Below are positions 13,139-60,728 of a stretch of 64,000 nt of DNA, in pieces. The notes under the pieces are model-generated. The model worked only from the letters and a program-made list of their open reading frames with translations. It was not told where the DNA came from and searched no databases. Position 1 is the first letter of the stretch. Each line of letters begins with the position of its first letter. Source of the stretch: Elusimicrobiota bacterium (GTDB lineage: Bacteria > Elusimicrobiota > Elusimicrobia > UBA1565); assembly GCA_043827405.1 (NCBI GenBank), contig JBDRPD010000054.1, positions 79,691 to 143,690 on the forward strand, read 5' to 3'. A program made the position numbers and the translations under genes.

Positions 13139-13722
13139 GCGATGAACTTCCCGGCAAAGGCGATCTCAGCAAGCCGCTTGCGCCCGGAAGGCGCCTCCTG
13201 CGCGCGCAATTCTTCGGGCAGCTTGATCTTGTCCGCGGGCACGCCGACCGCCGCCATGGCCTGCACCTCGTAGCCTTCGGGTACGTCAAGGTCGGCGCGG
13301 GCTCTTTCGTGATCGAAGCCGCCCATGCCGTGCGCCGCCAATCCCATGGCGGCCGCCTGCAGGGCGAGGCTCATCCAGGCCGCGCCGGTGTCGTAGGCAT
13401 GCGCGGCGTTCGGCTGATCATTGTGCTCAAAGTGCGTGCGCGACAGGAAAACGAAGAGGGCGCCGCTCTCTTTGGCCCAGCTTTGGTTGAAGGGAACGAG
13501 CAGGTTGAAGAGCTTGTTCCAGGAGCCGGTCCCCTTGCGGGCATAGACGATGCGCCAGGGCTGGCTGTTGTAGCATGAGGGGGCCCATTTGGCCGCTTCG
13601 ATAAGCGAGCGCACCTGTTTTTCCGACAGGGGTTCTCCGCTGAAGGCGCGGGGGGACCAGCGATTGATGAAGAGCTCGTTCACGTCGGCTTCGGGGGTTC
13701 GTGTTTTAGCTGCTGTGCTCAT
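13135..13722 (-). CDS. Nitroreductase family protein
   Basis: RWSPRAF, EAAKWAPSCYNSQPWR, YDTGAAW, HGMGGFD; AAGGAG RBS. Confidence 0.93.
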   Translation of the reverse strand: MSTAAKTRTPEADVNELFINRWSPRAFSGEPLSEKQVRSLIEAAKWAPSCYNSQPWRIVYARKGTGSWNKLFNLLVPFNQSWAKESGALFVFLSRTHFEHNDQPNAAHAYDTGAAWMSLALQAAAMGLAAHGMGGFDHERARADLDVPEGYEVQAMAAVGVPADKIKLPEELRAQEAPSGRKRLAEIAFAGKFIA

Positions 13723-13751
13723 ATGGTTTTCTCCTTAGGTCGTCCGCCCAT

Positions 13752-13817
13752 AGTATAGGCGATCAACTATTATTAATCAAATAAATTGATTTAATATAAT
13801 AAATAGATTCTATCTAT
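13752..13817 (-). promoter_or_regulatory. Sigma70 promoter of nitroreductase-pirin with upstream LysR-type (OxyR-like) boxes
   Basis: Minus strand TTGATT (13780-13775), 17 bp, TATACT (13757-13752); ATAA-N7-TAAT (13781-13795) and ATAG-N7-CTAT (13803-13817) 22 bp apart. Confidence 0.65.
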
Positions 13818-13861
13818 GATGGTATCGCGCCGGTTCCGCGCCGAAAGCTATACTTTCCAGG

Positions 13862-15094
13862 ATGCCGACGCAAAAGAAGCGGGAGATCGAACGCAACCTT
13901 CCTCTCTATAAAATCCTGTCTCTCCTGAAATTCACGCCCTTCATGCTGCCGGTGATCGTGCTGTTCTGGCAGGAGAACGGCATGGATATGTTCGACGTCT
14001 ATCTCCTGCAGGGCATTTACGCGGTTTTCGTGGTGCTGCTCGAGGTGCCGACCGGCATGGTGGCCGACCGCATCGGCAAAAAGACGAGCCTGCTCATGGG
14101 TCTGTTCGCCTTCATATTCGCGGTGGCGGTTTACGGCTCGGGTCACTGCTTTCTCACCTTTCTCTGGGCGGAACTCGTGCTGGCTGTAGGGAGCTGCCTG
14201 ATGTCGGGTGCCGACAGCGCCCTGCTCTACGATTCGCTCCAGTACCTCGACCGCGAATCCGAGTACCAGCAGCTGGAAGGCGAGGCGCGCTCGCTGGCCA
14301 TGGTCGGCTTCGCGGTCTCCAACCTGCTGGGCGGCGTCATCGCCCATATCCTGTCGTTTCGCGCCACGGTGTGGATTACCGGTATCGGACCGATTTTGGC
14401 GCTGTTCGCCGTCTGCGGTCTGCGCGAGGTGCAGATCGTGCGCCGCTCCGCGACGTATAAGGCCGAGGCCGCCGCCTACCTGCGGCTGATCGGGGATGCG
14501 CTCAGGTTCGTGCGCAAGCAGCAGCTTGTGCGCTGGCATATCCTGCTCTTCGCCGTGCTCGGCGCGAGCAGCACCTGGCTGCTGTGGCTGTATCAGCCCT
14601 ATATGACCTTATGCGGCCTGCCGGTTTGGTCGTTCGGCGTAATCTTCGCCCTCTTCAACTTTTTCGCCGCTTTTATGAGCGCCATCGCGCATCGCGTATC
14701 CAAGCGCTTCGGGGACCAGAATACTCTGACGCTGCTGATGAGCCTGCAGATCCTGCCGCCGCTGTTAATGAGCCTGTTCGTGACGCCTCTCAGCTTCCTC
14801 TTCATCCTCGGCCACCAAGCGGTGCGCGCCTTCATGTTCCCGTTCGTGCAGGATCTGGTCCTGCGCCATACTTACGAGGACAAGCGCGCCACCATGCTGT
14901 CGCTGTGCGCCATGTCGAGCCGGCTGTTCTTCGCGCTGACCTGCCCGTTCATCGGGCTGATGGGAAAGCACCTCGCCATACCGACGAACATGGCGGGACA
15001 GGTGGTCATGCTGGTCGTCATTTTCGCTGTGCTGTCGGCGATGTATCTCCGCATTCCAGCCAAATACTTCACCGTGAAGACCAGAGAGGCATGA
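13862..15094 (+). CDS. MFS transporter
   Basis: LEVPTGMVADRIGKK (motif A), SGADSALLYDSL, about 12 TM segments, KRATMLS. Confidence 0.9.
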   Translation: MPTQKKREIERNLPLYKILSLLKFTPFMLPVIVLFWQENGMDMFDVYLLQGIYAVFVVLLEVPTGMVADRIGKKTSLLMGLFAFIFAVAVYGSGHCFLTFLWAELVLAVGSCLMSGADSALLYDSLQYLDRESEYQQLEGEARSLAMVGFAVSNLLGGVIAHILSFRATVWITGIGPILALFAVCGLREVQIVRRSATYKAEAAAYLRLIGDALRFVRKQQLVRWHILLFAVLGASSTWLLWLYQPYMTLCGLPVWSFGVIFALFNFFAAFMSAIAHRVSKRFGDQNTLTLLMSLQILPPLLMSLFVTPLSFLFILGHQAVRAFMFPFVQDLVLRHTYEDKRATMLSLCAMSSRLFFALTCPFIGLMGKHLAIPTNMAGQVVMLVVIFAVLSAMYLRIPAKYFTVKTREA

Positions 15095-15095
15095 T

Positions 15096-16550
<1,455 letters not shown>

Positions 16551-16578
16551 ATTATGCGCTTCTTCATCGGAGGCCCCA

Positions 16579-16833
16579 GTGGACGTTCTTGAGTACGCGA
16601 AGAGCCGAGAGACGGATATGGTCAAGCTCTACAAAAACTTGGCCGAGCAGTCTTCTCAAGAGTCCATACGTAAAGTGTTCCTGGCCTTGGCCGAGGAAGA
16701 GGCCGAGCAGTTTTACCTGATGGCGGCGCGCAACGAGGAGAATCCCGTTCTGCAGGAAGTATTTCGCTGGCTGGCCAAGCAGGAGGGGCGGCACCGGGAG
16801 GTGCTGGGCCGGGCCAGGGACCGCATCCGCTGA
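16579..16833 (+). CDS. Short rubrerythrin/ferritin-like protein, apparently internally deleted
   Basis: GGAGG RBS and GTG start; A..RE....LY..LA, VF..LA.EE, FY..AA, VF..LAKQEGRH; only 84 aa with one ExxH. Confidence 0.6.
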   Translation: MDVLEYAKSRETDMVKLYKNLAEQSSQESIRKVFLALAEEEAEQFYLMAARNEENPVLQEVFRWLAKQEGRHREVLGRARDRIR

Positions 16834-17027
16834 GCGCTGTGGACTCCCTTTCTCCTGCGCGGCGGCCATCCCGCGCCGCCGAAGGTCTCTCGTCGTTCAT
16901 GAAAAATGCTTTAATACACGTCCCCAGGCCATCCTCAGTAATCCGGTCAATCCCGCATACTGCTGCGTAGGCCGCAAACGATGCCGGGGCGCGTATTATC
17001 GCCGGAAAATCGGTGGAAACCGGGTTT

Positions 17028-18065
17028 ATGACACAGGGCAGAAAGAAAGAGCATCTGAGAATTTGCGCCGAGATGGACGTCGAATTCCAGCATAAAACGA
17101 CATTGCTGGAGCATGTCCATCCGGTCCATGCCGCCTTGGCGGAGATCTCAATCGATGAGATAGACACCGGGACGAGCTTCATGGGACGGAAGCTGCGCGC
17201 GCCGCTGCTGATCAGCGCCATGAGCGGCGGGGTTACGCACGCTCGCGACCTCAACCGGGACCTGGCGCGCGCGGCGCAAAAGCTCGGTATCGGTTTCTGT
17301 CTGGGCAGCCAGCGTCCCATGCTGGAAAACCCGAAGCTGATCGGCACCTATCAGGTCCGCCGCTTCGCTCCCGACGTGCCGATTCTGGGAAATATCGGCG
17401 TTCAGCAGGCCGCCGCGGCGAAGCCCAGGGACATCGAGCGGTTGGTGACCTGTATCGAGGCCGACGGTTTGGCGGTGCATCTCAACCCGGCGCAGGAGCT
17501 GAGTCAGCTCGAGGGCGACCGGCGCTTTCCGGACGGCTACCGTACCCTGAAGATTCTCGCCAAGCGCCTGCCCGGCCGGATCATGGTCAAGGAGACCGGC
17601 TGCGGCATCTCGCGCGAGGTCGCCCGGAAGCTTAAGCGGGCCGGCATCCGGGTCGTGGATACGGCCGGCGCCGGCGGCACCTCGTGGACCCGGGTGGAGC
17701 ATCTGCGCAACGGAGTGAAGCCCGCGGCGCGCGGCTGGCTCGACGAATGGGGCATCCCGACGGCGGCGTCCCTCATGGACGTGGCCCCGCTGGGGCTTAA
17801 GGTCGCGGCATCGGGCGGGCTGCGCAGCGGCTACGACGCGGCCAAGTGTCTGATGCTGGGCGCCGACGTCTGCGGCATGGCGCTGCCGGTCCTGCGCGCC
17901 TATATGCGGGGAGGTTATCCCGCCGTACTCGCTTTTTTCGAACAGGTCCGGCGCGAGCTCAAGACCGTCATGCTGCTGGTCGGCGCCAAGGATATCCCCT
18001 CGCTCAAGAAACATAAGCCGGTAATCACTGGAGAACTCGCGGAATGGGCAACCCGGACAAGATAA
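17028..18065 (+). CDS. fni: Type 2 (FMN-dependent) isopentenyl-diphosphate delta-isomerase
   Basis: RKKEH, ISAMSGG, GSQR, HLNPAQE, KETGCG, GAGGTSW, WGIPT, SGGLR; start at ATG 17028 (GTG 17013 alternative). Confidence 0.95.
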   Translation: MTQGRKKEHLRICAEMDVEFQHKTTLLEHVHPVHAALAEISIDEIDTGTSFMGRKLRAPLLISAMSGGVTHARDLNRDLARAAQKLGIGFCLGSQRPMLENPKLIGTYQVRRFAPDVPILGNIGVQQAAAAKPRDIERLVTCIEADGLAVHLNPAQELSQLEGDRRFPDGYRTLKILAKRLPGRIMVKETGCGISREVARKLKRAGIRVVDTAGAGGTSWTRVEHLRNGVKPAARGWLDEWGIPTAASLMDVAPLGLKVAASGGLRSGYDAAKCLMLGADVCGMALPVLRAYMRGGYPAVLAFFEQVRRELKTVMLLVGAKDIPSLKKHKPVITGELAEWATRTR

Positions 18066-19408
18066 ACCAGCCGAACGATCCGAAAGAAGAGAAGCCGCAG
18101 CATCGCACCTCGCGGCTGTCCGGCTTCTATAAGCTCGACGTCTCGGAACGGCTGGACAAGCTCGACGAATGGCTTCCCCTTTCAAACGAGGAAAAGTGGA
18201 TGCTCAAGAAGGAGACGCTGTCGCTCGAGAAGGCCAATATGATGATCGAGAACGTCATCGGCATTTTCGGGCTTCCCCTCGGTCTCGCGGTCAACTTTCG
18301 CATCAACGGCAAGGACTACGTCATCCCGATGGCGGTGGAAGAGACGTCGATCGTCGCCGCCGCCGGCAATATGGCCAAGCTTATCCGCGAGAACGGCGAT
18401 CTCACGGCCTCCTCCAAGCGCGCCATAATGGAAGGGCAGATTCAGCTGTTCAACGTCGACCGTATCGAGACCGCCGTCAAGAAGATTGAGAAGGCGAAGG
18501 AACGGCTCCTGCGGGTAGCCAACCAGCAGGACCGGATGCTGGTCCGGCTGGGCGGCGGGGCCAAGGATCTTTACTGCCGCAAGATCTCCACCGAAAGCGG
18601 CCCCATGCTCATCGTCCATCTGGCCGTCGCGGTGGTCGACGCCATGGGCGCCAACGCCGTCAACACCATGGTGGAGACGCTGGGACCCATTATCGCGGAG
18701 ATCGCACAGGGAGAGCTGCTGTGTCAGATCATCACCAACCTCTGCGATAAGTCGCTGATCCAGGCACGTTTCGAGATCGGCGTCGACTGTCTCGCGAAGG
18801 GGGATTTCTCCGGGCTGCAGGTCGCGGAGCGGATCGTGAAGGAGTATCACTTCGCCGACGCCGACCCTTACCGCGCCGCGACGCATAACAAGGGCGTCAT
18901 GAACGGTATCGACGGGATCGTCATCGCCACCGGCAACGACTGGCGCGCCGTCGAGGCGGCCGCCCACGCCTACGCCGCCCGTACCGGCCGCTATCGGTCC
19001 CTGACCAAGTATCGCATCGAGGATAATAAGCTGATCGGTGAGATTGAGCTGCCGCTGGCGGTCGGCGTGGTCGGCGGCGTGACCAGGCTGCATCCTGCCG
19101 TCGAGATCCTGCTCAAGATTCTAGGCAAGCCGTCGCGGCGCGAGCTGGCGGAGATTATGGCGGCCGCCGGTCTGGTGCAGAACTTCGCCGCGGTGCGCAC
19201 TTTGGTGACCGAGGGAATCCAGCGCGGGCATATGACTCTGCATGCCCGCAATGTGGCCTACTTCGCCGGCGCCATCGGCGAGATGGCGGTTCATGTGGCC
19301 AATCAGATGGAGCGGGAAGGGCTGATCCGCTTCGACCGGGCCAAGGAGATTCTGAAGAATCTTCTCGTGCACCGGCAGAACGAGAACGGCGACGGAGAGG
19401 AAGCGTAG
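18044..19408 (+). CDS. mvaA: Class II hydroxymethylglutaryl-CoA reductase
   Basis: ENVIG, PMAVEETSIVAA, DAMGANAVN, THNKGVMNGI, GNDWRAVEA, GIQRGHMTLHARN. Confidence 0.96.
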   Translation: MGNPDKINQPNDPKEEKPQHRTSRLSGFYKLDVSERLDKLDEWLPLSNEEKWMLKKETLSLEKANMMIENVIGIFGLPLGLAVNFRINGKDYVIPMAVEETSIVAAAGNMAKLIRENGDLTASSKRAIMEGQIQLFNVDRIETAVKKIEKAKERLLRVANQQDRMLVRLGGGAKDLYCRKISTESGPMLIVHLAVAVVDAMGANAVNTMVETLGPIIAEIAQGELLCQIITNLCDKSLIQARFEIGVDCLAKGDFSGLQVAERIVKEYHFADADPYRAATHNKGVMNGIDGIVIATGNDWRAVEAAAHAYAARTGRYRSLTKYRIEDNKLIGEIELPLAVGVVGGVTRLHPAVEILLKILGKPSRRELAEIMAAAGLVQNFAAVRTLVTEGIQRGHMTLHARNVAYFAGAIGEMAVHVANQMEREGLIRFDRAKEILKNLLVHRQNENGDGEEA

Positions 19409-19419
19409 ACTCAAGCCGT

Positions 19420-20394
19420 ATGAAGACCGCAACCGAGAAGGCTCCGTCAAAGCTGATTCTGCTCGGCGAGCATGCCGTGGTCTACGGGCAGCCGGCGATC
19501 GCGGTGCCGCTGCGCGAGCCCTCCGCTGAAGCCGTGGTGACCGAGACGAGCGAATCCGAGCCGGTCGCCGTCGAGCTGAAGGATTTCGGTCTCCGTTGGA
19601 CGCGAGGCGAGAAGGCGGAGGCCGAGGAAATCCTTCCGTTCGCGCATATCGTCCGGTCCTGCATCGAAGACGGCGGCCGCATGCCGGGCCGCGGCTGGAA
19701 GCTCTCGATCCGATCGGACATTCCCATCGGCTGCGGTCTGGGCAGCGGCGCCGCTGTTTCCACCGCCGCGCTGCGGGCCATCCATCGTTTTTTCGGCTTC
19801 GCTATCGCGCCGCGAGAGCTGTCCGCGCTCGTCTACGAGACGGAGCGGATGCTGCACGGCACGCCGAGCGGCATCGATAATACCGTTATCGCGACCGAGC
19901 GTCCCGTTCTGTTCCGTAAGGGAGAGGACGGGGAATTTATCGAGCCGCCGGCGGCTCCCATCTTTTTCGTCATCGGCTATACGGGCAAGCGGCATAAGAC
20001 GTTCGCGGTCGTGACCGAGGTCGCGGAGGCGCGCGCGGCGGATCCCGAGACCTACGACGGGATATTCGCGGACATCGGCGAGATAACCCGTAAAGGCGCC
20101 GCCGCCTTCCGGGCCGGCGCGTTTGCCGAGCTCGGCCGGCTCATGGACGAGAATCACCGGCTGCTGGAAAGGCTCGGCGTTTCCTCACCCGAGCTCGAGC
20201 GCATGGTCCAGGCGGCGCAGGCCGCGGGGGCGCTCGGCGCCAAGCTGAGCGGCGCCGGCCGGGGCGGCTGCATGGTGGCGCTGGCGCCGGACGCCGTCGT
20301 CGCCGGCAAGCTTGAAGAGGCGCTGCGCCGGGCCGGTTCGGTTATGACCGTGACGACGGGAATTCTGCGGCGCAAGGCGGCGGCATGCGGGTGA
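19420..20394 (+). CDS. mvk: Mevalonate kinase (GHMP family)
   Basis: PSKLILLGEHAVVYG, PIGCGLGSGAA, HGTPSGID, KLSGAGRGG. Confidence 0.94.
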   Translation: MKTATEKAPSKLILLGEHAVVYGQPAIAVPLREPSAEAVVTETSESEPVAVELKDFGLRWTRGEKAEAEEILPFAHIVRSCIEDGGRMPGRGWKLSIRSDIPIGCGLGSGAAVSTAALRAIHRFFGFAIAPRELSALVYETERMLHGTPSGIDNTVIATERPVLFRKGEDGEFIEPPAAPIFFVIGYTGKRHKTFAVVTEVAEARAADPETYDGIFADIGEITRKGAAAFRAGAFAELGRLMDENHRLLERLGVSSPELERMVQAAQAAGALGAKLSGAGRGGCMVALAPDAVVAGKLEEALRRAGSVMTVTTGILRRKAAACG

Positions 20395-20939
20395 TCGTCG
20401 GGCTCTCCGGCGCGTCGGGCGTGGTGATCGGCGTCCGCTTGGTCGAAGAGCTGCTGGCCCGCAGCTGCGAGGTGCATGCGGTCGTCACCTCTTCGGCCTG
20501 GGACGTCCTGCGCCACGAGATGGGGGCGGACTTCAAGTTTCCCGCCGGGGCCGCGCTCTACGAGCAGAAAGACGCGAAAGCGCCGTTCAACAGCAGCTCT
20601 TTTCGCGCCGCCGCGATGGTCGTGGCGCCCTGCTCCATGAAGTCGCTGTCCGCGATCGCCGCCGGCTACGCCGATAATATTTTAGTGCGGGCGGCGGACG
20701 GCATGCTGCGTACCGGCGGGAAGCTGATCCTGGTTCCCCGGGAGACGCCGCTGTCGCTCTCGGCGCTGGAAAATATGGCGTCCTTGCGGCGTGACGGCGC
20801 CCTGATCGCTCCGCCGATGGCGGCGTACTACCACGGACCCAAGACCGTCGACGATATGACGAATTTCTTCGTCGGCAAGCTGCTCGATCTGCTGGGTCTC
20901 GAAAATGATCTGTACCGGCGCTGGAGCGGTGGAGCATAG
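20385..20939 (+). CDS. ubiX: Flavin prenyltransferase (prFMN synthase)
   Basis: VGLSGASG, PCSMKSLSAIAAGYADN, RAAD, LVPRETP. Confidence 0.94.
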   Translation: MRVIVGLSGASGVVIGVRLVEELLARSCEVHAVVTSSAWDVLRHEMGADFKFPAGAALYEQKDAKAPFNSSSFRAAAMVVAPCSMKSLSAIAAGYADNILVRAADGMLRTGGKLILVPRETPLSLSALENMASLRRDGALIAPPMAAYYHGPKTVDDMTNFFVGKLLDLLGLENDLYRRWSGGA

Positions 20940-20940
20940 A

Positions 20941-22215
20941 ATGGATATCGGCTCGATTATCAAGATGTTCCAGGACGCCGGCGAGCTCACGACGGTGGGG
21001 GAAGAGCTCGACCCCGTGCTCAAGGCGGCGGCAGCGATCCGCGCCGCCGAACCCGCGCCCGTGCTCCTGGATAACGTGCGAGGCAGCCGGATCCTGGCCA
21101 ATATCATGCCGACCCGGGACGCGCTGGCGCGGCTGCTCGGGGTCGATCCCGCCCGGTTTTTGCCCGAGCTGGCGGCCAAGCTGGAGGGGGGCGGCGCGGG
21201 CTGTGTCCGGCGCGACGCCGTCTTCGGCGACGAGGAGATTCCGCTGGCCGAGCTGGAGCGGCTGCCCTTTTTGACCTACTACAGCGTGGACGGCGGGCCC
21301 TATCTGACGGCGGGCGTATGGGTCGTTCGCGATCCCCGGCATGGAGTGAATCTTTCCTATCACCGCATGATGCGGACCGGCCCGGGACGCGGTACCGTGC
21401 GCGTTGTGGAGCGGCGCGGCACCGATACCGCGATGAAGAACAGCGGCGGCACGCTGGAGGCGGCGATCTGTATCGGCGCTCCCGCGCCGGTGCTGTTCGC
21501 GGCGGCGCTGTCGCCCGCGCCCGACATCAACGAGCTGGACATCGCCGCGCGCTTCGGCGAGCTGGAGCTGGTCCGCTGCAAAACGATCGACGTGGAGGTC
21601 CCCGCTTCCTGCCAGCTGGTGATCGAGGGCCGGTTCACCGGGGAGACCGGGGCTGAAGGTCCCTTCGTGGATATCACGGGGACGGTAGATGTTGTCCGGC
21701 AGCAGCCGGTGTTCGAAATTACGCGGGCGGCTCGCCGCAGGGATGCCGTGCTCTACGATATCGTACCGGGACGGTCCGATCACCGGACGCTGATGGGGAT
21801 TCCCAAAGAGCTGGATATTTACCGCGAAGTTTCCAAGGTCTGCCGCTGTCTCGACGTATCCATCACGCCGGGCGGCGCTTCCTGGCTGCACGCGGTCATC
21901 CGCATCGCCAAAGAAAAAGGGCAGGACGGACGCGCGGCGCTGGCGGCGGCGTTCGCCGCGCACCGCTCGCTCAAACACTGCGTTGTCGTCGATGAAGACA
22001 TCGACATCCGCAATCCCGCCGCGGTCGAATGGGCGCTGGCGACGCGGTTCCAGGCCAATACCGACCTGCTGCTGCTCGACGATCAGCCGGGCAGCTCGCT
22101 TGATCCCTCCGTGCATCACGAGAGCGGCAAGGGCAGCCGGGGCTCGAAGCTCGGGCTCGACGCCACGATTCGCGAGGGCGGCGAACCGTCGCTGTTCAAG
22201 AAGATAACCGAGTGA
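20941..22215 (+). CDS. UbiD-family prFMN decarboxylase; by context trans-anhydromevalonate 5-phosphate decarboxylase
   Basis: NLSYHRM, EGPFVDITG, KHCVVVDEDID, EWALATRFQA, SSLDPS, KLGLDAT; lies between mvk/ubiX and the AcnX/IPK genes; start at ATG 20941. Confidence 0.88.
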   Translation: MDIGSIIKMFQDAGELTTVGEELDPVLKAAAAIRAAEPAPVLLDNVRGSRILANIMPTRDALARLLGVDPARFLPELAAKLEGGGAGCVRRDAVFGDEEIPLAELERLPFLTYYSVDGGPYLTAGVWVVRDPRHGVNLSYHRMMRTGPGRGTVRVVERRGTDTAMKNSGGTLEAAICIGAPAPVLFAAALSPAPDINELDIAARFGELELVRCKTIDVEVPASCQLVIEGRFTGETGAEGPFVDITGTVDVVRQQPVFEITRAARRRDAVLYDIVPGRSDHRTLMGIPKELDIYREVSKVCRCLDVSITPGGASWLHAVIRIAKEKGQDGRAALAAAFAAHRSLKHCVVVDEDIDIRNPAAVEWALATRFQANTDLLLLDDQPGSSLDPSVHHESGKGSRGSKLGLDATIREGGEPSLFKKITE

Positions 22216-23453
22216 ACCTGTCCGCGGAAGAACAAGATGTCCTCGACGGCAAGCAGGGCGCCGGGGCCGCCAAGGCCATGGAGATTCTGCGGGCGCTGGG
22301 CCGCATCAGCGGGGCGCCGGATATGGTCCGGGTCGGCTCAGTGCAGGTCTCGGGCGTAAGCTACAAGAATATCGGCGAGCATGGGCTCGCCTTTCTCAAT
22401 GAGTGGGCGGCCCAAGGCTCCAAGGCGGCGGTACCCGCTTTCATGAATCCCGGCGGCGCCGACCGCAAGCTGTGGAAGGCCTTGGGCTTTCCGGCGGATT
22501 TCGTCGAAAAACAGGCGCAGGTGGTCGCGGCGCTGGAGGGCCTGGGCGTGCAGCCGACCTTGACCTGCACGCCGTACCATATCGGCATCAAGCCGCAGCC
22601 CGGCGAGCATGTCGCCTGGGCGGAGTCCTCGGCGGTCGTGTTTGCGAACTCGGTGCTCGGGGCCCGGACCAACCGGGAGGGCGGACCGTCGGCGATCGCC
22701 GCGGCGCTGACCGGGCGGACGCCCCGGCACGGCCTGCATACCGACGAGGGGCGGCGGCCTACCCGCGTCGTTCAGGTGAAATGCGGGGTCAAGACGAGCG
22801 CCGATGCCGGCGCGCTCGGCTACCTGATCGGCCGCGTCCTGGCGCAGGACAGCAAGGGCGGAATCCCGTATATCGCGGGGGTCGAGCCGCCGGAAGGAGC
22901 GGCGCGGCTGGCTTGGCTTAAAGCGCTCGGCGCCGGGATGGCCGCTTCCGGTTCGGTAGGCCTGTATCACCTGGAGGGCGTGACGCCCGAAGCGGCCGCC
23001 GCGGGGGCCGGGTTCGCCGACGCCGCGCCGGAGCGTACGGAGATCGTCTCGCTGGCGGAAGGCTATCGTAATCTGAACGCCAAACAGGGCGCTATCGACG
23101 TGGTGGCCCTCGGCTGCCCGCATGCCTCGCCCGAAGAGCTGGAGCATGTTGTGCGGCTGCTGCGCGGCCGCCGGACCAAGCTCCCGCTGTGGATTTTCGT
23201 GGCGGAAGGCGTGCGCCGGGAGGCGCAGGCCGCGGGCGTCGCGGCGGAGCTCGAGAAGTCGGGAGCGGTCCTGCTCGCCGACACCTGCCTGGTGGTGGCG
23301 CCGCTCAAGGAGCTCGGGATCCGGGGCGCGGTGACCAACTCGGCCAAGATGGCATTTTATCTGCCGTCGCATCACGGCGTAGGCGTGCGCTTCGGCTCGA
23401 CGGAAGAAGGCGTTGAAACCGCGGTCGCCGGGGAGTGGAAATACGATGCCTGA
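22212..23453 (+). CDS. Aconitase X large subunit (DUF521); by context phosphomevalonate dehydratase large subunit
   Basis: SGVSYKNIG, TCTPY, WAESSAVVFANSVLGARTNREGG, GCPH, DTCLVV, TNSAK (three Fe-S cysteines). Confidence 0.9.
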   Translation: MNLSAEEQDVLDGKQGAGAAKAMEILRALGRISGAPDMVRVGSVQVSGVSYKNIGEHGLAFLNEWAAQGSKAAVPAFMNPGGADRKLWKALGFPADFVEKQAQVVAALEGLGVQPTLTCTPYHIGIKPQPGEHVAWAESSAVVFANSVLGARTNREGGPSAIAAALTGRTPRHGLHTDEGRRPTRVVQVKCGVKTSADAGALGYLIGRVLAQDSKGGIPYIAGVEPPEGAARLAWLKALGAGMAASGSVGLYHLEGVTPEAAAAGAGFADAAPERTEIVSLAEGYRNLNAKQGAIDVVALGCPHASPEELEHVVRLLRGRRTKLPLWIFVAEGVRREAQAAGVAAELEKSGAVLLADTCLVVAPLKELGIRGAVTNSAKMAFYLPSHHGVGVRFGSTEEGVETAVAGEWKYDA

Positions 23454-23844
23454 GAAGCGGCTGGAGGGGCGGGTGATCTTCGGCGGCGCCGCCGCGGGCC
23501 GCGTCTTGAAGTCCGAGCAGCCTTTGGGCTTTTTCGGCCATATCGATCCCGAGACCGGCGTTTACCGGGAAGCGGGGCATCCGCTGGACGGCCGGCTGCT
23601 CAGCGGCCGGGTGCTGGTCTTTCCGCGGGGCAAAGGCAGCACGGTGGGCTCCTACATCATCTACGCGCTGCGCAAGACCGGCAAGGCGCCCGCGGCGATG
23701 ATCATCGGCGAATGCGATACCATCGTCGCCGTCGGCGCCATCATCGGCGAGATCCCCGCGCTGGACAGCGTCGACCTTTCATGCCTCAAGGACGGCGACG
23801 CGGTGCGGGTGCGGGACGGGGAGGTTTTCATTGAGCAAGCTTAG
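23446..23844 (+). CDS. Aconitase X swivel (small) subunit (DUF126); phosphomevalonate dehydratase small subunit
   Basis: FFGHIDPETG, GHPL.G, VFPRGKGSTVGSY, KAPAAMI; ATG 23446 overlaps the large-subunit stop. Confidence 0.9.
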   Translation: MPEKRLEGRVIFGGAAAGRVLKSEQPLGFFGHIDPETGVYREAGHPLDGRLLSGRVLVFPRGKGSTVGSYIIYALRKTGKAPAAMIIGECDTIVAVGAIIGEIPALDSVDLSCLKDGDAVRVRDGEVFIEQA

Positions 23845-24625
23845 CGTCTTCGTCAAGCTGGGCGGGTCGTTTATCACCGACAAGAATGTGGCCGACAGCC
23901 TGGCCGGGCCGCGCATTGAGACCGCCGCGCGCATGATCGGCGAGGCGCTGGGGCAGAGCGAAATGTCCTTGGTGCTCGGCCACGGCGCCGGCTCGTACGG
24001 CCACATCCTGGCGCAGAAGTACGATGCCGTGCGGGGCGTGCATCCCGAGTTGGGCTGGGAAGGCTACTACAAGATCCGCGAGTCGATGACCGAGATGAAT
24101 TTGCGTTTCGTGCGCCACTGCGGCGCCGGCGGGCTGCATCCCGTGACGATCTCGCCGCATGCCGTGGCGGCGGCGGCGGACGGCCGGCTGGAGCGCATCG
24201 ATACGCGCAATATCTCCGAGCTGCTTAAGCAAGGGCAGATTCCGCTGCTGCACGGCGATATCGTCCCCGACCGCGTGCGCGGCTTCACTATAGCCTCTAC
24301 CGAAGCCCTGCTCGCGGGGCTGGCCGAGCATATGCGCTTCGACCGGGTGGTGATGATCAGCGATACCGTCGGCGTGCTTGACGAGAAGGGCCGGACGATC
24401 GAGATGCTCGACGACGGCGGGTTCGCCGCGGCCGCGGAGCATATCGGCGGAGCCGGCGCGCCCGACGTTACCGGCGGGATGCGCCGGAAGGTGGAGCAGC
24501 TCTTTTCGCTGATCCGCGCCGGCCGTATCGGCGAGGCGCGTATTACCACCTGCGCTGAAGAGCCCGAGAACCTGCGGCGGGCGATCCTCGGCGACGGCGG
24601 CGGCGGAACGCTGCTGCAGGCCTAA
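23831..24625 (+). CDS. ipk: Isopentenyl phosphate kinase (amino-acid kinase fold)
   Basis: VKLGGSFITDK, HGAGSYGH (IPK-type His), PLLHGDIV, DVTGGM..K. Confidence 0.9.
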   Translation: MSKLSVFVKLGGSFITDKNVADSLAGPRIETAARMIGEALGQSEMSLVLGHGAGSYGHILAQKYDAVRGVHPELGWEGYYKIRESMTEMNLRFVRHCGAGGLHPVTISPHAVAAAADGRLERIDTRNISELLKQGQIPLLHGDIVPDRVRGFTIASTEALLAGLAEHMRFDRVVMISDTVGVLDEKGRTIEMLDDGGFAAAAEHIGGAGAPDVTGGMRRKVEQLFSLIRAGRIGEARITTCAEEPENLRRAILGDGGGGTLLQA

Positions 24626-24636
24626 CGGAGGAGAAT

Positions 24637-25059
24637 ATGCCCTGTCTTGAGATCACCCTGCCGAAGACCGACCGCGAGACCAAGGCGAAACTCGCGGACT
24701 GCCTGACCGAGGCCTTCGCGAGCAGCACCCTGTTCGGCAAGGAGATATTCGGCGTGCGGTTCTTCGAGTACGGTCCCGGCGAGGCGGCGGTCGGCGGCCG
24801 GCTGGTGGACGGCGATGAAAAGAGCCCCTATCTGCACGCCCTGCTGTACTGTCCCCGGATTACGCGCTCGACCAAACAGAAGCTGGCGGAAGCCCTCACG
24901 GAAGCTTTTGTTCGGGGTACGGGCCGGGAGGACTGGAGGCCGGTTATCCATATCTGCGAGCACCCCTACGACAATGTCGCGGTGGAGGGGCGGGTCTTGT
25001 CCGAGGCCTTCGAGGAGTGCGCGAAGAAAAGCTTCTACTACGAGCTGCCCAAGGATTGA
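24637..25059 (+). CDS. Tautomerase superfamily protein with two beta-alpha-beta repeats (fused 4-OT/MIF-like)
   Basis: GGAGGAG RBS; Met-Pro start; internal repeat PCLEITL..TDRETKAKLADCLTEAF / PYLHALL...ITRSTKQKLAEALTEAF; AVGG/AVEG ends. Confidence 0.8.
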   Translation: MPCLEITLPKTDRETKAKLADCLTEAFASSTLFGKEIFGVRFFEYGPGEAAVGGRLVDGDEKSPYLHALLYCPRITRSTKQKLAEALTEAFVRGTGREDWRPVIHICEHPYDNVAVEGRVLSEAFEECAKKSFYYELPKD

Positions 25060-25060
25060 A

Positions 25061-25903
25061 ATGTCCGACGCCTTCGCGCCCGGAACCCTGCGGCGCCTTG
25101 TGCTGGGACGTACCGTCAGCGCACTACAGAGCGGCGCCCTGCGTCCCATCCCGACCGGAAGTGAGCTTGTCGCACAGGACGGCGTCGAATTCGTCGTGCG
25201 CATTTTCACCAACCTCGCCCGGAAGGAGACGCACCGGAAGGGGCGGGACAACAAGAACCCGTTTTTACCGCCGGAACAGGACCTGACGGTTGCCGGCGTC
25301 TCCGCTGCGCATTTTTGCATTCTTAACAAGTTTAATGTCTTCGCTCATCACCTGCTCATCGTCACCCGGGAGTTCGAGGAACAGGAGCGCCTGCTGACGG
25401 CGGCGGACTGCGCGGCGCTGCTGCGCTGTATGGCGGAATATGAAGCGCTCGGTTTCTATAACGGCGGCGAGACCGCCGGCGCGAGCGAGCGGCACAAGCA
25501 TCTGCAGCTGGTGCCGCTGCCGCTGACGACGCGCGGGCCGTCGGTGCCGATCGAGGCCGCGCTTGCAGGAGCGGAATTCCGCCACGGCATCGGGATGTCG
25601 GTCCGGCTGCCGTTCCGGCATGCGCTGGCCGCCGTGGAGCCGCGGTGGTCTGCGGACCGGATGCTGGAAGCTTATCACGGCCTGCTCAACGCGGTCGGGG
25701 TCGACGGGGCGGCGCCCTACAACCTGCTCATGACCCGGCGCTGGATGCTCGCGGTGCCGCGGGCGGCGGAGAAATTCGGGTCGGTATCGATCAATGCCCT
25801 CGGCTTCGCGGGCTCCCTGCTCGTGCGCAACGCCGCTGAGCTGGCCAAGCTCAAGGAGCTCGGCCCGATGAACGTGCTAAAGAGCGTCGGCTGTCCGCGC
25901 TGA
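25061..25903 (+). CDS. ATP adenylyltransferase / Ap4A phosphorylase II (Apa2-like)
   Basis: NPFLPPE, LNKFNV..HHLLIVTREFEEQ, GFYNGG..AGASERHKHLQ (HxHxQ), YNLLMT, INALGFAG; start at ATG 25061. Confidence 0.9.
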   Translation: MSDAFAPGTLRRLVLGRTVSALQSGALRPIPTGSELVAQDGVEFVVRIFTNLARKETHRKGRDNKNPFLPPEQDLTVAGVSAAHFCILNKFNVFAHHLLIVTREFEEQERLLTAADCAALLRCMAEYEALGFYNGGETAGASERHKHLQLVPLPLTTRGPSVPIEAALAGAEFRHGIGMSVRLPFRHALAAVEPRWSADRMLEAYHGLLNAVGVDGAAPYNLLMTRRWMLAVPRAAEKFGSVSINALGFAGSLLVRNAAELAKLKELGPMNVLKSVGCPR

Positions 25904-25906
25904 CGC

Positions 25907-26446
25907 TTATTTCTTCTTCGCTTTCTTGACCCGCGCGGTGATGATGTCGTCGAGCCCTTCCGGCTTGTCCGGCAGCTTGAAGTCGTACTTGAGCTGCGAC
26001 TGGCGCGTGCGGGCGCTCAGGAACCAGCCGTCCAGGCAGACCTGGAAGACTTCCTTTTCGCCGGCGGCCAGCGGGCCGCGGCCTTCGATGCGGATGCGCA
26101 CCTGGCGCGTCTCGCTGCGGTAGGGGATTTCGTGACAGATCTGCCCGGCCGGCGGGATGTTCTGGCAGCGCTGCTCGTAGATGGTCGCTTTGAGGAACTT
26201 CATCTCCGATAGCGGCCCGTCGCCCTCTTTAAATGTTATGTCCTCGCAGTCGCGGGTCCAGCGGGAGATCATGCCCGCGGTCTGAAAGCCGGCTGGGGCG
26301 GCTGCGGCGGTCTTGCGCGCCTGCTTGACGACCGCTTTGACATCGATCGATCCCTGGTCAAAATTGATGTTGGGCTCCGCGGCGGCGAAGCTCCAGAGTC
26401 CTGCGGTGACGGCGAAAACGGCGGCGATTCTGATCCCGTGCTTCAT
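25907..26446 (-). CDS. Secreted hypothetical protein
   Basis: AGGAGG RBS, signal peptide, INFDQGSIDV N-terminal motif, four cysteines. Confidence 0.75.
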   Translation of the reverse strand: MKHGIRIAAVFAVTAGLWSFAAAEPNINFDQGSIDVKAVVKQARKTAAAAPAGFQTAGMISRWTRDCEDITFKEGDGPLSEMKFLKATIYEQRCQNIPPAGQICHEIPYRSETRQVRIRIEGRGPLAAGEKEVFQVCLDGWFLSARTRQSQLKYDFKLPDKPEGLDDIITARVKKAKKK

Positions 26447-26500
26447 GTTTTGCCTCCTGAAAGGTAAATTTATTGTACACCCGGACGCGCTATGACAATA

Positions 26501-26596
26501 TAGGTCGATAGTCCCAGTACTTTTTCATATAGGCCCTAGGGCCTATATTCCGCTAGGCCTCCCGGCCCGGGGAGTCCTGCTCCCGCGCGCTAACCT
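26501..26596. promoter_or_regulatory. Three palindromic TAGGNC-N4-GNCCYR boxes in a divergent promoter region
   Basis: TAGGTCGATAGTCCCA (26501-26516); perfect 22-bp palindrome ATATAGGCCCTAGGGCCTATAT (26527-26548); TAGGCCTCCCGGCCCG (26554-26569); -10-like TAACCT (26591-26596, +) and TACAAT (26477-26472, -). Confidence 0.55.
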
Positions 26597-26624
26597 ATTA
26601 GCGATGGAGCGCATGGGGGAGATA

Positions 26625-27242
26625 ATGAAAAACAGAATTCAGAAGGCGGTCATTTTGCTGCTGGCTTTCATGCTCCTTCCGGCCGTCGCGGCGCGGGCGG
26701 CGAAATCCGCCAAGCGCACCTGCCGTTTCTATGTCGCCAACAGCAAGAAGTCCGGTTCCCGCTTGCTGTGCCTCAAAACCTGCCCGTCATGGACCTATTC
26801 AGTGCGCCTGCAGGGGCAGAGCGACCACTTCTGCATGCCGCGCCACGTCTTCGGATCGGAAGGAAAGCGCAACGCTTTTGTGCGCGATAATATGGGCGGC
26901 GCCGCGAATAATACCGTGCGGCGGGCGGGCTCCAAGCCCGGCCGGAAGATCAGCAGCACCGGCAGCGGCGCCTATGTCGGCGACGATCCGGCCAACAATG
27001 TCCGGGTGAGCTGCAGCGGGCCCAAGCGCATTACTTTCGGCACGGTGGTGGATGATAAAGGCCGCTTTCTCGGTTATGATCGTTCCACTATCGAGAAGGC
27101 CGTACAGCGGGGCGATATTACCGCGCAGGAAGCCGCCGGTATGACCATCTCCCCGGTCGCCAAGCGGCGGCGTGCCGACGGCACGGCCTACTATACCGAC
27201 AGCCGCACCGGCAGGATCGTTGATCCGGACTCCTTTAAATAA
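26625..27242 (+). CDS. Secreted basic hypothetical protein
   Basis: GGGGAG RBS before ATG 26625 (ATG 26604 alternative); signal peptide MKNRIQKAVILLLAFMLLPAVAARA. Confidence 0.65.
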   Translation: MKNRIQKAVILLLAFMLLPAVAARAAKSAKRTCRFYVANSKKSGSRLLCLKTCPSWTYSVRLQGQSDHFCMPRHVFGSEGKRNAFVRDNMGGAANNTVRRAGSKPGRKISSTGSGAYVGDDPANNVRVSCSGPKRITFGTVVDDKGRFLGYDRSTIEKAVQRGDITAQEAAGMTISPVAKRRRADGTAYYTDSRTGRIVDPDSFK

Positions 27243-27252
27243 CACCAAAGTT

Positions 27253-27600
27253 GACTCCGTCGTAAGAACACCGTCGTGTGGCGCGTTCGCGCGGGGGCGC
27301 CTTACGCAGGTAAGGCCGCGCCCTCCAAGGCCATCGTGGGTGCTTGCGTCCAGTACCTCAGCGCCCGCCGCAGGTTGCACCCCGCGGCCTTGAGCTGCAC
27401 CACCAAATTCGTCCGACGTCCCCGTCTCACCCGCAACTTCCCCAGCCCCGGCCCCCGCTTGAGCTCCGAGTTCGTCGCCTCGATCCCCGCCCGAATCGCG
27501 CAGCGCTCCTTGAACTCGGGTTGCGCCTCCTGCTGCTTGAGCCACTCCCCGGCCTTCGTCCGCCCGGTCGGGCACTTCGCCGCCGGCGCCTTTACTCGGC
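27253..27600 (-). mobile_element. Remnant of an IS1182/IS5-like element: transposase C-terminus and probable terminal repeat
   Basis: My translation of the minus strand gives ...QPEFKERCAIRAGIEATNSELKRGPGLGKLRVRRG...QLKAAGCNLRR...* (stop 27302-27304), DDE_Tnp_1_6-like; no N-terminus; end-like GACTCCGTCGTAAG at 27253. Confidence 0.7.
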
Positions 27601-27765
27601 GCCATCCAAAACGCGCCGGGCCTTCGCCTCGCCAAGATGCCGTCGTGGCTTCGGCAATACCAGCAGGTCGCAGTGCATCGCGTCAAACACGCGCCGCCAG
27701 GTATCCAGTCGAGCGTCCGTCCGTCCGGATTCGAGTAGTTGAATATGCTGCTGGGATGTCCTTAT
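27592..27765 (-). pseudogene. Fragment of an XRE-family helix-turn-helix protein
   Basis: SQQHIQLLESGRTDARLDTWRRVFDAMHCDL resembles the recognition helix and C-terminal half of HTH_3; the N-terminal helices are not evident. Confidence 0.5.
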
Positions 27766-27811
27766 AGAATCCTGACCGGCCGCTTGTATAGGGATCCCAT
27801 CCCATGTGAGA

Positions 27812-27833
27812 ATAACATAGTTAACTATGTTAT
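27812..27833. repeat. Perfect 22-bp palindrome (operator-like)
   Basis: ATAACATAGTTAACTATGTTAT equals its own reverse complement; nearby direct repeat GGGATTAAAG x2 (27842-27862). Confidence 0.7.
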
Positions 27834-28164
27834 CGCCAGAGGGGATTAAAGAGGGATTAAAGTCTCCTATGGCCGCCACGGAGCCGACATATGCATCCTC
27901 CCATTCGGCGAAACAGCCGAGGCAGGCCCTTCGCTTCGCCTGCGGCGGGCGGCTTTCGCCCCGTCCGGCTGCGCCGGCCGGCGCGAAAGCTCCTTAACGA
28001 CCGCTCCAATCATGGCGCCGTGTCCGGACGTGGGATCACCGGGACTTTTTACGAGGGAACCAAAGTTACCTGCCCATCCGCGTCAACATTTCGTAAAATT
28101 GCCCATTAAGGGGCCTCGCCCCAATTTTCCTCATTGACCCCAGCGATGATGCAGGAGCCGTGAA

Positions 28165-57890: not shown

Positions 57891-57930
57891 GCTATAAGCA
57901 TAGTACTTATGAGGGCGGGGAGAAGTCCGT

Positions 57931-58608: not shown

Positions 58609-58613
58609 GCTCC

Positions 58614-59108: not shown

Positions 59109-59174
59109 GACTTGCTCCTAAGAACCGCCGAGTTTCCCGGTCATCGGTGCCCTTGCGATTCCGTTTGGCGGATG

Positions 59175-60718: not shown

Positions 60719-60728
60719 TCTCTCGGTC

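What the first reader, a model, noticed from the sequence alone, without database searches (positions are those of the whole stretch)
17028..24625. Complete archaeal-type (anhydromevalonate-phosphate) mevalonate pathway as one operon in a Gram-negative bacterium
Seen: eight co-oriented, overlapping or nearly abutting genes, fni-mvaA-mvk-ubiX-ubiD-acnX(L)-acnX(S)-ipk, with catalytic motifs intact and no phosphomevalonate kinase or diphosphomevalonate decarboxylase among them. The same window carries lipid A acyltransferase, TolC, ECF sigma and peptidoglycan amidase genes, so the host is bacterial. Established: this is the gene set of the modified route defined in Aeropyrum pernix and Methanosarcina mazei. 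It runs MVA to MVA-5-P, to trans-anhydromevalonate-5-P (Fe-S AcnX), to isopentenyl phosphate (prFMN UbiD/UbiX), to IPP (IPK), and uses 2 rather than 3 ATP. To my recollection bacterial examples have been characterised only in Chloroflexota (Ca. Promineifilum), and archaeal genes are usually scattered. Inference: a diderm, probably anaerobic, possibly Elusimicrobiota bacterium makes isoprenoids by the archaeal route. The genes look as GC-rich as their neighbours, suggesting an old acquisition.
Basis: partly seen in the sequence, partly recalled or inferred. Interest (0 to 1): 0.93.

Follow-up and report, generated by a model that had tools for sequence, protein, structure and literature searches.

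The report
Archaeal mevalonate operon replacing MEP, Elusimicrobiota
An uncultured Gram-negative bacterium of the Elusimicrobiota has lost the usual bacterial route to isoprenoid building blocks and carries the archaeal route as one eight-gene operon, a route that the papers I could search report in bacteria only for Chloroflexota.

Summary
The eight genes are there, with unbroken frames and one copy each, and match the archaeal (anhydromevalonate-phosphate) route. AcnX-L keeps 13 of 14 substrate and Fe-S residues of the Thermococcus enzyme. The host is Elusimicrobiota; the same gene order occurs in 9 of 401 phylum genomes searched, in two families (32, 33, 38). Six of the nine, this one included, lack dxr, ispG, ispH and ispF, and here those genes are missing from contiguous DNA (36, 51, 70, 71, 75, 77). 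The operon is therefore probably the sole IPP source, also for hopanoids. HMG-CoA may come from leucine breakdown (about even odds against an assembly gap). The closest labelled relatives are KSB1, then Chloroflexota. Not found for Elusimicrobiota in nine paper searches, but two key papers were unavailable. This scan noted a similar operon in Gemmatimonadota and leucine-fed mevalonate operons in Bacteroidota. No enzyme was assayed.

The parts
17028..18065 (+). fni, type 2 (FMN) IPP isomerase
   Evidence: TIGR02151 345 bits, cut-off 281
18044..19408 (+). mvaA, class II HMG-CoA reductase; the only HMGR in the genome
   Evidence: TIGR00532 401/260; best PDB matches 6dio and 1qax; single copy
19420..20394 (+). 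mvk, mevalonate 5-kinase
   Evidence: TIGR00549 246/163; best PDB matches 6mde and 4hac
20385..20939 (+). ubiX, flavin prenyltransferase (prFMN synthase) for the decarboxylase
   Evidence: TIGR00421 202/109; single copy
20941..22215 (+). ubiD-family decarboxylase, inferred anhydromevalonate-phosphate decarboxylase (AMPD)
   Evidence: TIGR00148 302/245; far below cut-off for UbiD PRK10922 (115/788), TIGR03701 (107/496) and VdcC (139/650). It shares the EGPF-x-D-x-T motif with 67 of 68 AcnX-adjacent UbiDs.
22212..23453 (+). acnX large subunit, phosphomevalonate dehydratase (type IIb AcnX), Fe-S ligands C119/C302/C359
   Evidence: PF04412 457 bits; 7CNR 303 bits vs 206 for hydroxyproline dehydratase; 13 of 14 residues listed for TkAcnX identical
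23446..23844 (+). acnX small subunit (DUF126 swivel) with the catalytic Ser-Thr-Val of TkAcnX
   Evidence: PF01989; 7cnr_B 142 bits vs 66 for the type I enzyme
23831..24625 (+). ipk, isopentenyl phosphate kinase
   Evidence: NF040647 147/120; best PDB match 3k4o
24637..25059 (+). tautomerase-like gene, abutting ipk, probably co-transcribed, not conserved beside the operon in relatives
   Evidence: PF01361; 11 bp after ipk; absent from the operon loci of 8 of 8 relatives
25061..25903 (+). Ap4A phosphorylase (Apa2-like), last gene before the top-listed terminator-like hairpin (25882-25908); not conserved beside the operon in relatives
   Evidence: PF19327 and PF09830; terminator scan; absent in 8 of 8 relatives

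Best explanation
The operon encodes the archaeal modified mevalonate route from HMG-CoA onward. HMG-CoA is reduced to mevalonate (class II HMGR) and phosphorylated to mevalonate 5-phosphate (MVK, 1 ATP). The two-subunit Fe-S AcnX dehydrates it to trans-anhydromevalonate 5-phosphate. The prFMN-dependent UbiD, supplied by UbiX, decarboxylates that to isopentenyl phosphate. IPK makes IPP (second ATP) and Fni makes DMAPP. In this bacterium the route has replaced the ancestral MEP pathway and is the only evident source of IPP for undecaprenyl phosphate, polyprenyl chains and hopanoids. Shown by sequence: gene identities, residues, gene order, MEP gene loss in contiguous DNA, host phylum. Inferred: enzyme activity, expression and flux. 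The source of HMG-CoA is less certain. Six of 8 relatives have an archaeal HMGS-thiolase-DUF35 module elsewhere in the genome; this genome shows none, and my leading reading (about 0.45-0.5) is leucine breakdown through methylcrotonyl-CoA carboxylase and methylglutaconyl-CoA hydratase.
For: Family scores and PDB matches. Diagnostic residues. The AcnX-L tree nests it among phosphomevalonate-dehydratase-like sequences, including Thermococcus; an AU test rejects grouping with other bacterial AcnX, p=0.0016. The same 8-gene order is in 9 of 9 operon genomes, and 0 of 44 loci with the more distant bacterial AcnX have any mevalonate gene nearby. HMGR occurs in 9 of 9 operon genomes and 0 of 20 operon-less relatives. 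dxr, ispG, ispH and ispF are absent from the same 6 of 9 operon genomes but present in 19-20 of 20 operon-less ones. In this genome cdsA abuts rseP without dxr, the ispA-side locus lacks dxs and ispH, radA and its partner gene are not followed by ispDF, and the ispG region is contiguous without it. Downstream sinks are present: shc, hpnH, hpnA, FPP synthase, two squalene/phytoene-synthase-family genes and an uppS orthologue. Leucine route: mccB-hydratase-HMG-CoA lyase cluster as in operon-less G180, a single shared biotin carboxylase, an acyl-CoA dehydrogenase orthologue, a heterotetrameric 2-oxoacid dehydrogenase E1, and no LeuA-type hit.
Against: No activity was measured and no characterised AMPD sequence was available for direct comparison; the best PDB match of the UbiD is 6h6v (210 bits; a furan-dicarboxylate decarboxylase, recalled). 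Three of 9 operon genomes keep all four MEP genes tested, so the operon is not always the sole route. The AcnX Fe-S cluster is oxygen-sensitive (PMC10040528, passages) while this host encodes oxidases. For the leucine step: this genome keeps two HMG-CoA lyase homologues that would compete for HMG-CoA, it has no dedicated MccA, and a 108-contig assembly can miss a 3-kb HMGS module.
Confidence: 0.88

Rival explanations
1. The lower pathway is as described, but the upper half is the ordinary archaeal HMGS-thiolase-DUF35 module, lying on a piece missing from this assembly.
For: 6 of 8 relatives with the operon have archaeal HMGS over the TIGR00748 cut-off, with archaeal thiolase and DUF35 where examined. 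The genome is in 108 contigs. The module occupies different sites in different genera, so it could lie anywhere.
Against: The genome is 97.97% complete. The three sites where relatives keep the module are assembled here without it (C39, C83, C105). G268 (93%) and G276 (99%) also lack it, and in both the carboxylase operon runs on without HMGS where congeneric G176 has it. All 3 HMGS-negative genomes keep HMG-CoA lyase; 5 of 6 HMGS-positive ones lack it.
Confidence: 0.4
2. The cell scavenges mevalonate from the environment. The lower operon salvages it to IPP, and the class II HMGR can run oxidatively with HMG-CoA lyase to burn the excess, as in Pseudomonas mevalonii mvaAB (recalled).
For: The HMGR is of the NAD-linked 'degradative' family and its best structures are 6dio and 1qax. 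The genome has two lyase homologues and no HMGS.
Against: No transporter is conserved beside the operon: the upstream MFS and glpK genes are absent in 8 of 8 relatives. The lyases are unlinked and occur in 17 of 20 operon-less relatives. The same HMGR sits in operons of genomes that have HMGS and no lyase.
Confidence: 0.1
3. UbiD/UbiX and AcnX are an aromatic-acid decarboxylase and a hydroxyproline-type dehydratase that happen to lie among mevalonate genes.
For: Both families hold such enzymes. The best PDB match of UbiD is not an AMPD. NCBIfam's only hit for AcnX-L is the hydroxyproline dehydratase model, at 285 against a cut-off of 700.
Against: The residue pattern is that of the mevalonate-phosphate enzyme. 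The AU test rejects grouping with other bacterial AcnX. The gene order is conserved in 9 of 9 genomes, and in an archaeal contig beside HMGS and HMGR. No PMK, DMD or MEP alternative was found in the genome.
Confidence: 0.03
4. The contig is an archaeal-bacterial chimera or a contaminant.
For: No single listed public contig spans the whole 18-kb stretch laid.
Against: Contamination is 0.48%. One 8647-bp contig with no differences covers 18918-27564, across the right border, and long contigs have similar depth (13-19) over flanks and operon. A second study covers all 30 bins, with long pieces about 95-99% alike. In G176 and G276 the operon sits between cdsA and dxr in the bacterial rpsB-tsf-pyrH-frr-uppS cluster. 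GC3 and tetranucleotide use are typical of the genome.
Confidence: 0.01

Closest known systems
Archaeal modified mevalonate pathway of Aeropyrum pernix and Methanosarcina mazei (PMDh, AMPD, prFMN synthase, IPK; PMC12547664, PMC10040528, PMC8184944, passages)
   Same: Same enzyme set below mevalonate, two-subunit type IIb AcnX with three Cys ligands, UbiD plus UbiX, IPK, no PMK or DMD.
   Different: The host is a diderm bacterium with respiratory oxidases. HMGR, MVK and type 2 IDI share one operon with the four signature genes. No HMG-CoA synthase was found in this genome. Likely products include hopanoids; archaeal ether-lipid genes were not searched for.
Archaeal mevalonate pathway of Ca. Promineifilum breve, Chloroflexota (Kanno et al. 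2024; seen only as a reference-list title and as cited in PMC13001223)
   Same: Bacterial host. 8 of 23 Chloroflexota-labelled loci hold ubiX, ubiD, acnX-L, acnX-S and ipk in the same order. AcnX-L falls in one large clade with the Chloroflexota sequences.
   Different: Different phylum and envelope. HMGR and fni lie in 0 of 23 Chloroflexota loci, mvk in 1. Identity is only about 50-55% (AcnX-L) and 33-35% (IPK). KSB1-labelled proteins are closer; an AU test rejects Elusimicrobiota+Chloroflexota without KSB1, p=0.0009, groups named after seeing a tree.
Leucine-to-mevalonate shunt of trypanosomatids (PMC5993337, passages) and bacterial Liu leucine catabolism (recalled)
   Same: Isovaleryl-CoA dehydrogenase, methylcrotonyl-CoA carboxylase and methylglutaconyl-CoA hydratase can deliver HMG-CoA to HMGR.
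   Different: Trypanosomes also have thiolase and HMGS and use the eukaryotic lower route. Here the shunt would be the only entry and would feed the archaeal lower route. This is inferred, not shown.
Archaeal thiolase/HMG-CoA synthase/DUF35 complex (recalled; TIGR00748, PRK06064, PF01796)
   Same: HMGS present in 6 of 8 related operon-bearing genomes and 0 of 20 operon-less ones, with thiolase and DUF35 where examined.
   Different: Not found in this genome. In G344, G176 and G316 it follows the methylcrotonyl-CoA-carboxylase/hydratase genes.

Membership tests
Archaeal (anhydromevalonate-phosphate) mevalonate pathway | Two-subunit type IIb AcnX (PMDh) with Cys at sites A, 1 and B | tested here: met
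   C119, C302 and C359 align with Thermococcus C110, C283 and C342
Archaeal (anhydromevalonate-phosphate) mevalonate pathway | Mevalonate-5-phosphate-binding residues of TkAcnX, without the hydroxyproline-specific Asp/Trp/Thr/Ile | tested here: met
   13 of 14 large-subunit positions identical, position 47 Ser for Ala as in several archaeal-clade rows; small subunit keeps Ser-Thr-Val, with Phe where Tk has Leu. Many of these positions are shared by all AcnX-II rows; the discriminating ones are 47-53.
Archaeal (anhydromevalonate-phosphate) mevalonate pathway | UbiD-family AMPD with a UbiX partner | tested here: met
   Both present, adjacent, single copy; motif shared with 67 of 68 AcnX-adjacent UbiDs. 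No characterised AMPD sequence was compared directly, so orthology rests on context and motif.
Archaeal (anhydromevalonate-phosphate) mevalonate pathway | Isopentenyl phosphate kinase and mevalonate 5-kinase | tested here: met
   NF040647 and TIGR00549 over cut-off; PDB 3k4o and 6mde
Archaeal (anhydromevalonate-phosphate) mevalonate pathway | No PMK, DMD or PMD used | tested here: met
   Four PF00288 matches in the genome: MVK, IspE-like, HddA-like, ThrB. No dedicated decarboxylase model was searched genome-wide.
Archaeal (anhydromevalonate-phosphate) mevalonate pathway | Formation of trans-anhydromevalonate 5-phosphate; [4Fe-4S] cluster; prFMN cofactor | not testable with these tools
   Needs enzyme assay
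Complete mevalonate pathway from acetyl-CoA | HMG-CoA synthase (with thiolase) | tested here: not met
   0 matches with PF08540, TIGR00748 and PF01154, and with phmmer and tblastn using relatives' HMGS; the other tblastn queries hit. Four bacterial-type thiolases are present. The assembly is incomplete.
MEP pathway (ancestral in this order) | dxs, dxr, ispD, ispE, ispF, ispG, ispH | tested here: not met
   dxr, ispG, ispH and ispF not found; dxs and fused ispDF missing from their syntenic sites; only an IspE-like gene remains, 100 bits vs cut-off 139
Leucine (Liu) route to HMG-CoA | Isovaleryl-CoA dehydrogenase, MCC (carboxyltransferase, biotin carboxylase, carrier), methylglutaconyl-CoA hydratase | tested here: inconclusive
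   Carboxyltransferase, hydratase and lyase form a cluster; the acyl-CoA dehydrogenase is 62-63% identical to those near MCC genes in three relatives; only one biotin carboxylase (AccC), as in G180 and G316. Substrate specificities are inferred from context.
[quoted passage not shown] | Cys-x-Cys site C and ring-binding residues | tested here: not met
   The query lacks the second Cys after site B and has the site-1 Cys; NF051439 285 vs cut-off 700

The most novel reading that the evidence does not exclude
This bacterium and G268 have neither the MEP pathway nor HMG-CoA synthase. All their isoprenoids, hopanoids included, would be built from imported leucine, passed through the Liu enzymes to HMG-CoA and then through an archaeal lower pathway. 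That pathway would have entered Bacteria from an archaeal lineage with the same gene order and spread among Chloroflexota, KSB1, Elusimicrobiota and Planctomycetota. The nine genomes would record the replacement in progress: MEP plus operon, operon plus archaeal HMGS with the lyase lost, and operon plus leucine only.
Probability: 0.42. Interest if true: 0.78.

Novelty: new member of a known kind. Interest (0 to 1): 0.6.

Why it matters
The route is described as archaeal, and a 2026 review names only Chloroflexota among bacteria (PMC13001223, passage). This extends it to outer-membrane bacteria and shows it replacing the MEP pathway in six genomes, with three genomes holding both. It probably feeds hopanoids, so some bacterial lipid biomarkers could carry a mevalonate-type, or even leucine-derived, isotope pattern (inference). 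The host encodes oxidases, so its Fe-S dehydratase is a candidate for better oxygen tolerance, a known limit of this ATP-saving route in E. coli (PMC12547664, passages); the eight genes are already one compact bacterial operon.

Tried and rejected
HMGS searches of this genome gave nothing; the nearest thiolase-fold hit is an OleA-like gene in an ole cluster. PF01154 is a poor test for archaeal HMGS: it missed G344 and scored FabH in G088, G268 and G276, so I count HMGS from TIGR00748. Expression: no RNA holder listed, and the one RNA run laid touched 2 of 30 bins; this is no evidence either way. The promoter scan found no site upstream of fni (2 sites in the region, 1.4 expected by chance), and terminators were 11 found against 7.0 expected. 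An AU test of Elusimicrobiota plus archaeal contig L232 did not finish. The metagenome scan meant to fetch KSB1 or Planctomycetota loci returned none whose nearest reference was of those clades, so gene order in those phyla is unseen. The IPK search listed no Planctomycetota-labelled protein. Naming the 50%-cluster representatives largely failed: 1 of 10 clusters carried a name. A motif check of the IspE-like protein matched none of my three recalled patterns, which is uninformative. A Fisher test of MEP loss against operon presence gave p=1.8e-4, but kin are not independent, so I do not rely on it. Kanno et al. 2024 and Hoshino and Villanueva 2023 are not held. The upstream MFS and glpK genes and the downstream tautomerase and Ap4A phosphorylase were rejected as pathway parts because 0 of 8 relatives keep them beside the operon.


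Full report
1. Observation. Eight co-oriented ORFs span 17028-24625 with gaps of -22 to +11 bp. They score as type 2 IDI, class II HMGR, MVK, UbiX, a UbiD-family decarboxylase, AcnX large and small subunits, and IPK. Six pass an NCBIfam cut-off; the small subunit is just under (148/163), and the large subunit is named by Pfam (457 bits). Each is single copy in the genome. The window's bacterial markers are confirmed. The window is G000:C54; the genome has 4.33 Mb in 108 contigs and is 97.97% complete with 0.48% contamination.

2. Enzyme identity. AcnX-L matches the Thermococcus structure 7CNR at 303 bits against 206 for the hydroxyproline dehydratase; the small subunit gives 142 against 66. 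Of 14 large-subunit positions (11 substrate contacts named in PMC8184944, passages, and the three Cys ligands, PMC10040528, passages), 13 are identical and position 47 is Ser for Ala (reference row T. waiotapuensis). Most of these positions are common to all AcnX-II rows; the 47-53 segment separates the groups. UbiD scores far below the cut-offs of quinone and aromatic-acid decarboxylases and shares one motif with 67 of 68 AcnX-adjacent UbiDs, archaeal ones included. Its best PDB match is 6h6v at 210 bits; I had no characterised AMPD sequence to compare. IPK and MVK match PDB 3k4o and 6mde best. The four GHMP kinases in the genome are MVK, IspE-like, HddA-like and ThrB.

3. Host and spread. 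The two best of 69 genome-collection loci are labelled Elusimicrobiota (72% and 67%), followed by Chloroflexota at about 48-55%. In a sample of 401 genomes of the phylum, 9 have the AcnX-L: this one, 2 of 9 others in its family and 6 of 48 in a second family of the same order. All 9 have the same eight-gene order, at 51-76% identity. In G176 and G276 the operon is inverted between cdsA and dxr within the rpsB-tsf-pyrH-frr-uppS-cdsA-dxr-rseP cluster (G176 annotated; G276 from coordinates). GC3 is 0.81-0.87 against 0.82 +/- 0.05, and 24% of 523 genome windows are further from the mean tetranucleotide profile. Public contigs of two studies cover 30 of 30 bins of 12000-30000; one may be the source of this DNA, and no listed piece spans the whole stretch. 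The tool labels both runs groundwater metagenomes. A chimera is very unlikely.

4. MEP loss. I compared the 9 operon genomes with the 20 operon-less relatives listed (of 392 without a match; same family or order, not a random draw). ispG and ispF are present in 3 of 9 and 20 of 20; dxr and ispH in 3 of 9 and 19 of 20. The same six genomes (G000, G316, G268, G312, G367, G380) lack all four; G344, G176 and G276 keep all four. HMGR is in 9 of 9 and 0 of 20. Kin are not independent, so this is a pattern, not a test. In G000 the loss is in assembled DNA: cdsA is followed by rseP 58 bp later on C8; ispA on C66 is no longer followed by dxs and ispH; radA and its partner on C83 are not followed by ispDF; and the C66 region whose genes flank ispG in relatives is contiguous without it. 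An IspE-like gene remains, below cut-off. Squalene-hopene cyclase, HpnH, HpnA and FPP synthase pass cut-offs, two SQS/PSY genes are present, and an uppS orthologue is kept. Hopanoid genes in Elusimicrobia are already reported (PMC7306690, passages).

5. The missing upper half. No HMG-CoA synthase was found in G000 by three models, phmmer or tblastn, while the other tblastn queries hit. Archaeal HMGS passes cut-off in 6 of the 8 other operon genomes and in 0 of 20 operon-less ones; archaeal thiolase was seen after it in G312, G316, G344 and G176, and DUF35 in the four checked. In G344 and G176 the module follows carboxyltransferase, hydratase, biotin carboxylase and carrier genes in one run. 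In G316 it lies two genes after the carboxyltransferase-hydratase pair, at the locus where G000 and operon-less G180 have HMG-CoA lyase. The lyase is absent from 5 of 6 HMGS-positive genomes, present in 3 of 3 HMGS-negative operon genomes and in 17 of 20 operon-less ones. G268 lacks both MEP and HMGS and carries carboxylase, hydratase and acyl-CoA dehydrogenase genes about 8-14 kb from the operon on the same contig, with no HMGS where congeneric G176 has it. G000 has the carboxyltransferase-hydratase-lyase cluster, one biotin carboxylase (as G180 and G316 do), an orthologous dehydrogenase, a heterotetrameric E1 and peptide transporters; its two PF00682 matches are both lyases, so no LeuA was seen. 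Leucine feeding of the mevalonate pathway is shown in trypanosomes (PMC5993337, passages). Against this: the retained lyases compete for HMG-CoA, specificities are inferred from context, and a small module can be lost from an assembly. I put leucine at about 0.45-0.5, an assembly gap at 0.4 and mevalonate scavenging at 0.1.

6. Origin. In AcnX-L trees (230 rows, FastTree; 56 rows, IQ-TREE LG+G4 quick search) the Elusimicrobiota sequences form one clade (SH-aLRT 99) that includes a Planctomycetota-labelled protein; a UbiD with the same label and contig length behaves alike. The neighbours are KSB1/Zhuqueibacterota-labelled proteins (95 in FastTree, 82 in IQ-TREE; 100 for UbiD in a midpoint-rooted tree). 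KSB1-labelled IPKs are also next, at 44-50%. These, the Chloroflexota rows and five or six unlabelled rows form a clade (97) whose nearest outside row is L232 (support 86). L232 is a 35%-GC contig with archaeal IF-2 and Trm1 and the order mvk-ubiX-ubiD-acnX-L-acnX-S-(one gene)-ipk-ipk, then thiolase, HMGS and class II HMGR. In the UbiD tree L232 lies among the other metagenome rows, so a single entry into Bacteria is suggested by AcnX-L but not proven. AU tests reject Elusimicrobiota+Chloroflexota without KSB1 (p=0.0009) and Elusimicrobiota with non-PMDh bacterial AcnX (p=0.0016); groups were named after seeing a tree. Rows left out: AcnX sequences under about 330-350 aa and three quarters of the proteobacterial outgroup loci L045-L078. 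KSB1 and Planctomycetota labels come from record names; I did not see their gene order. Whether the nine genomes reflect one gain with many losses or repeated transfer is open.

7. Physiology. G000 encodes an aa3-type cytochrome c oxidase (PF00115 500 bits; CoxB over cut-off), cytochrome bd, citrate synthase, succinyl-CoA ligase and malate dehydrogenase. Five of 9 operon genomes have a strong COX1 match, G344 a weak one, three none. 'Probably anaerobic' is not supported; a facultative or micro-aerobic life fits better. The archaeal route worked in aerobically grown E. coli when PMDh was highly expressed (PMC12547664, passages).

8. Literature. Nine full-text searches listed no paper whose title or abstract start links Elusimicrobiota or KSB1 to this route; most hits I saw only as listings. 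Passages read: PMC6107057 (Chloroflexi the only bacterial phylum with an archaeal-type route, written before PMDh/AMPD were known; 0 mentions of Elusimicrobia), PMC13001223 (2026; Chloroflexota only; 0 mentions), PMC11052028 and PMC8237579 (0 mentions), PMC7495880 (no link). Kanno et al. 2024 and Hoshino and Villanueva 2023 are not held; I saw only their titles in reference lists, and their trees or supplements may already list these phyla. No supplements were read. Public records already label some Elusimicrobiota proteins as isopentenyl phosphate kinase. Earlier notes of this scan describe a similar operon in Gemmatimonadota and leucine-fed mevalonate operons in Bacteroidota; these are unchecked leads.

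9. Verdict. A real operon for the archaeal lower mevalonate route plus HMGR and IDI, in a new bacterial phylum, where it has replaced MEP in this and five related genomes. The MEP replacement series, the link to hopanoids and the possible leucine-only entry keep it well above ordinary: interest 0.6.

Noticed in passing
G000:C40, L119:5591-10162: oleA-oleB-oleC-oleD-like olefin biosynthesis cluster downstream of large ketosynthase-containing ORFs; its OleA is the only FabH-like hit in the genome.
   Followed up: no
G000:C93, L137:7682-8608: An IspE-like kinase survives in the tsaE-tsaB-TPR-ispE-spoVG-glmU-prs cluster although the other MEP genes tested are gone; relic or other function.
   Followed up: partly
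L232 and L233 (metagenome contigs): Archaeal contig with a whole mevalonate cluster: two tandem IPK genes, a type 1 IDI-like gene and a 503-aa HMGS with about 160 extra N-terminal residues.
   Followed up: partly
L261:5790-6794 and L263:19132-20100: Archaeal-type contigs with the AcnX/UbiD route also carry a diphosphomevalonate decarboxylase (over cut-off) or an MvaD-like gene nearby; L261 also has [FeFe]-hydrogenase maturases HydE, HydF and HydG.
   Followed up: no
P0197: A 616-aa UbiD-UbiX fusion within the KSB1-labelled AMPD clade.
   Followed up: no
G316:C41 (L142:5928-8585): A second HMGS-thiolase-DUF35-like triad next to a hydrolase; it may be a different enzyme complex such as a PhlABC type (recalled).
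   Followed up: no
G312, L085:15301-16313: fni matches in two overlapping frames at the contig end, a frameshift or assembly error.
   Followed up: no
G268, L226:7179-7985: An undecaprenyl-diphosphate-synthase-like gene abuts the acyl-CoA dehydrogenase at the end of the leucine carboxylase cluster.
   Followed up: partly
window 16579-16833: Short rubrerythrin-like ORF between glpK and fni (PF02915); any role in protecting the Fe-S enzyme is speculation.
   Followed up: no
window 56523-63741: Lower-GC end of the contig (56-60%) with an RNA helicase, ArsG-family permease, ArsR regulator and a XerD-like recombinase, possibly a small island.
   Followed up: no
G000:C45, L132:1408-2361: A second HMG-CoA-lyase-family gene directly upstream of tolQ/tolR-like genes, with an OPT-family transporter on the opposite strand.
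   Followed up: no
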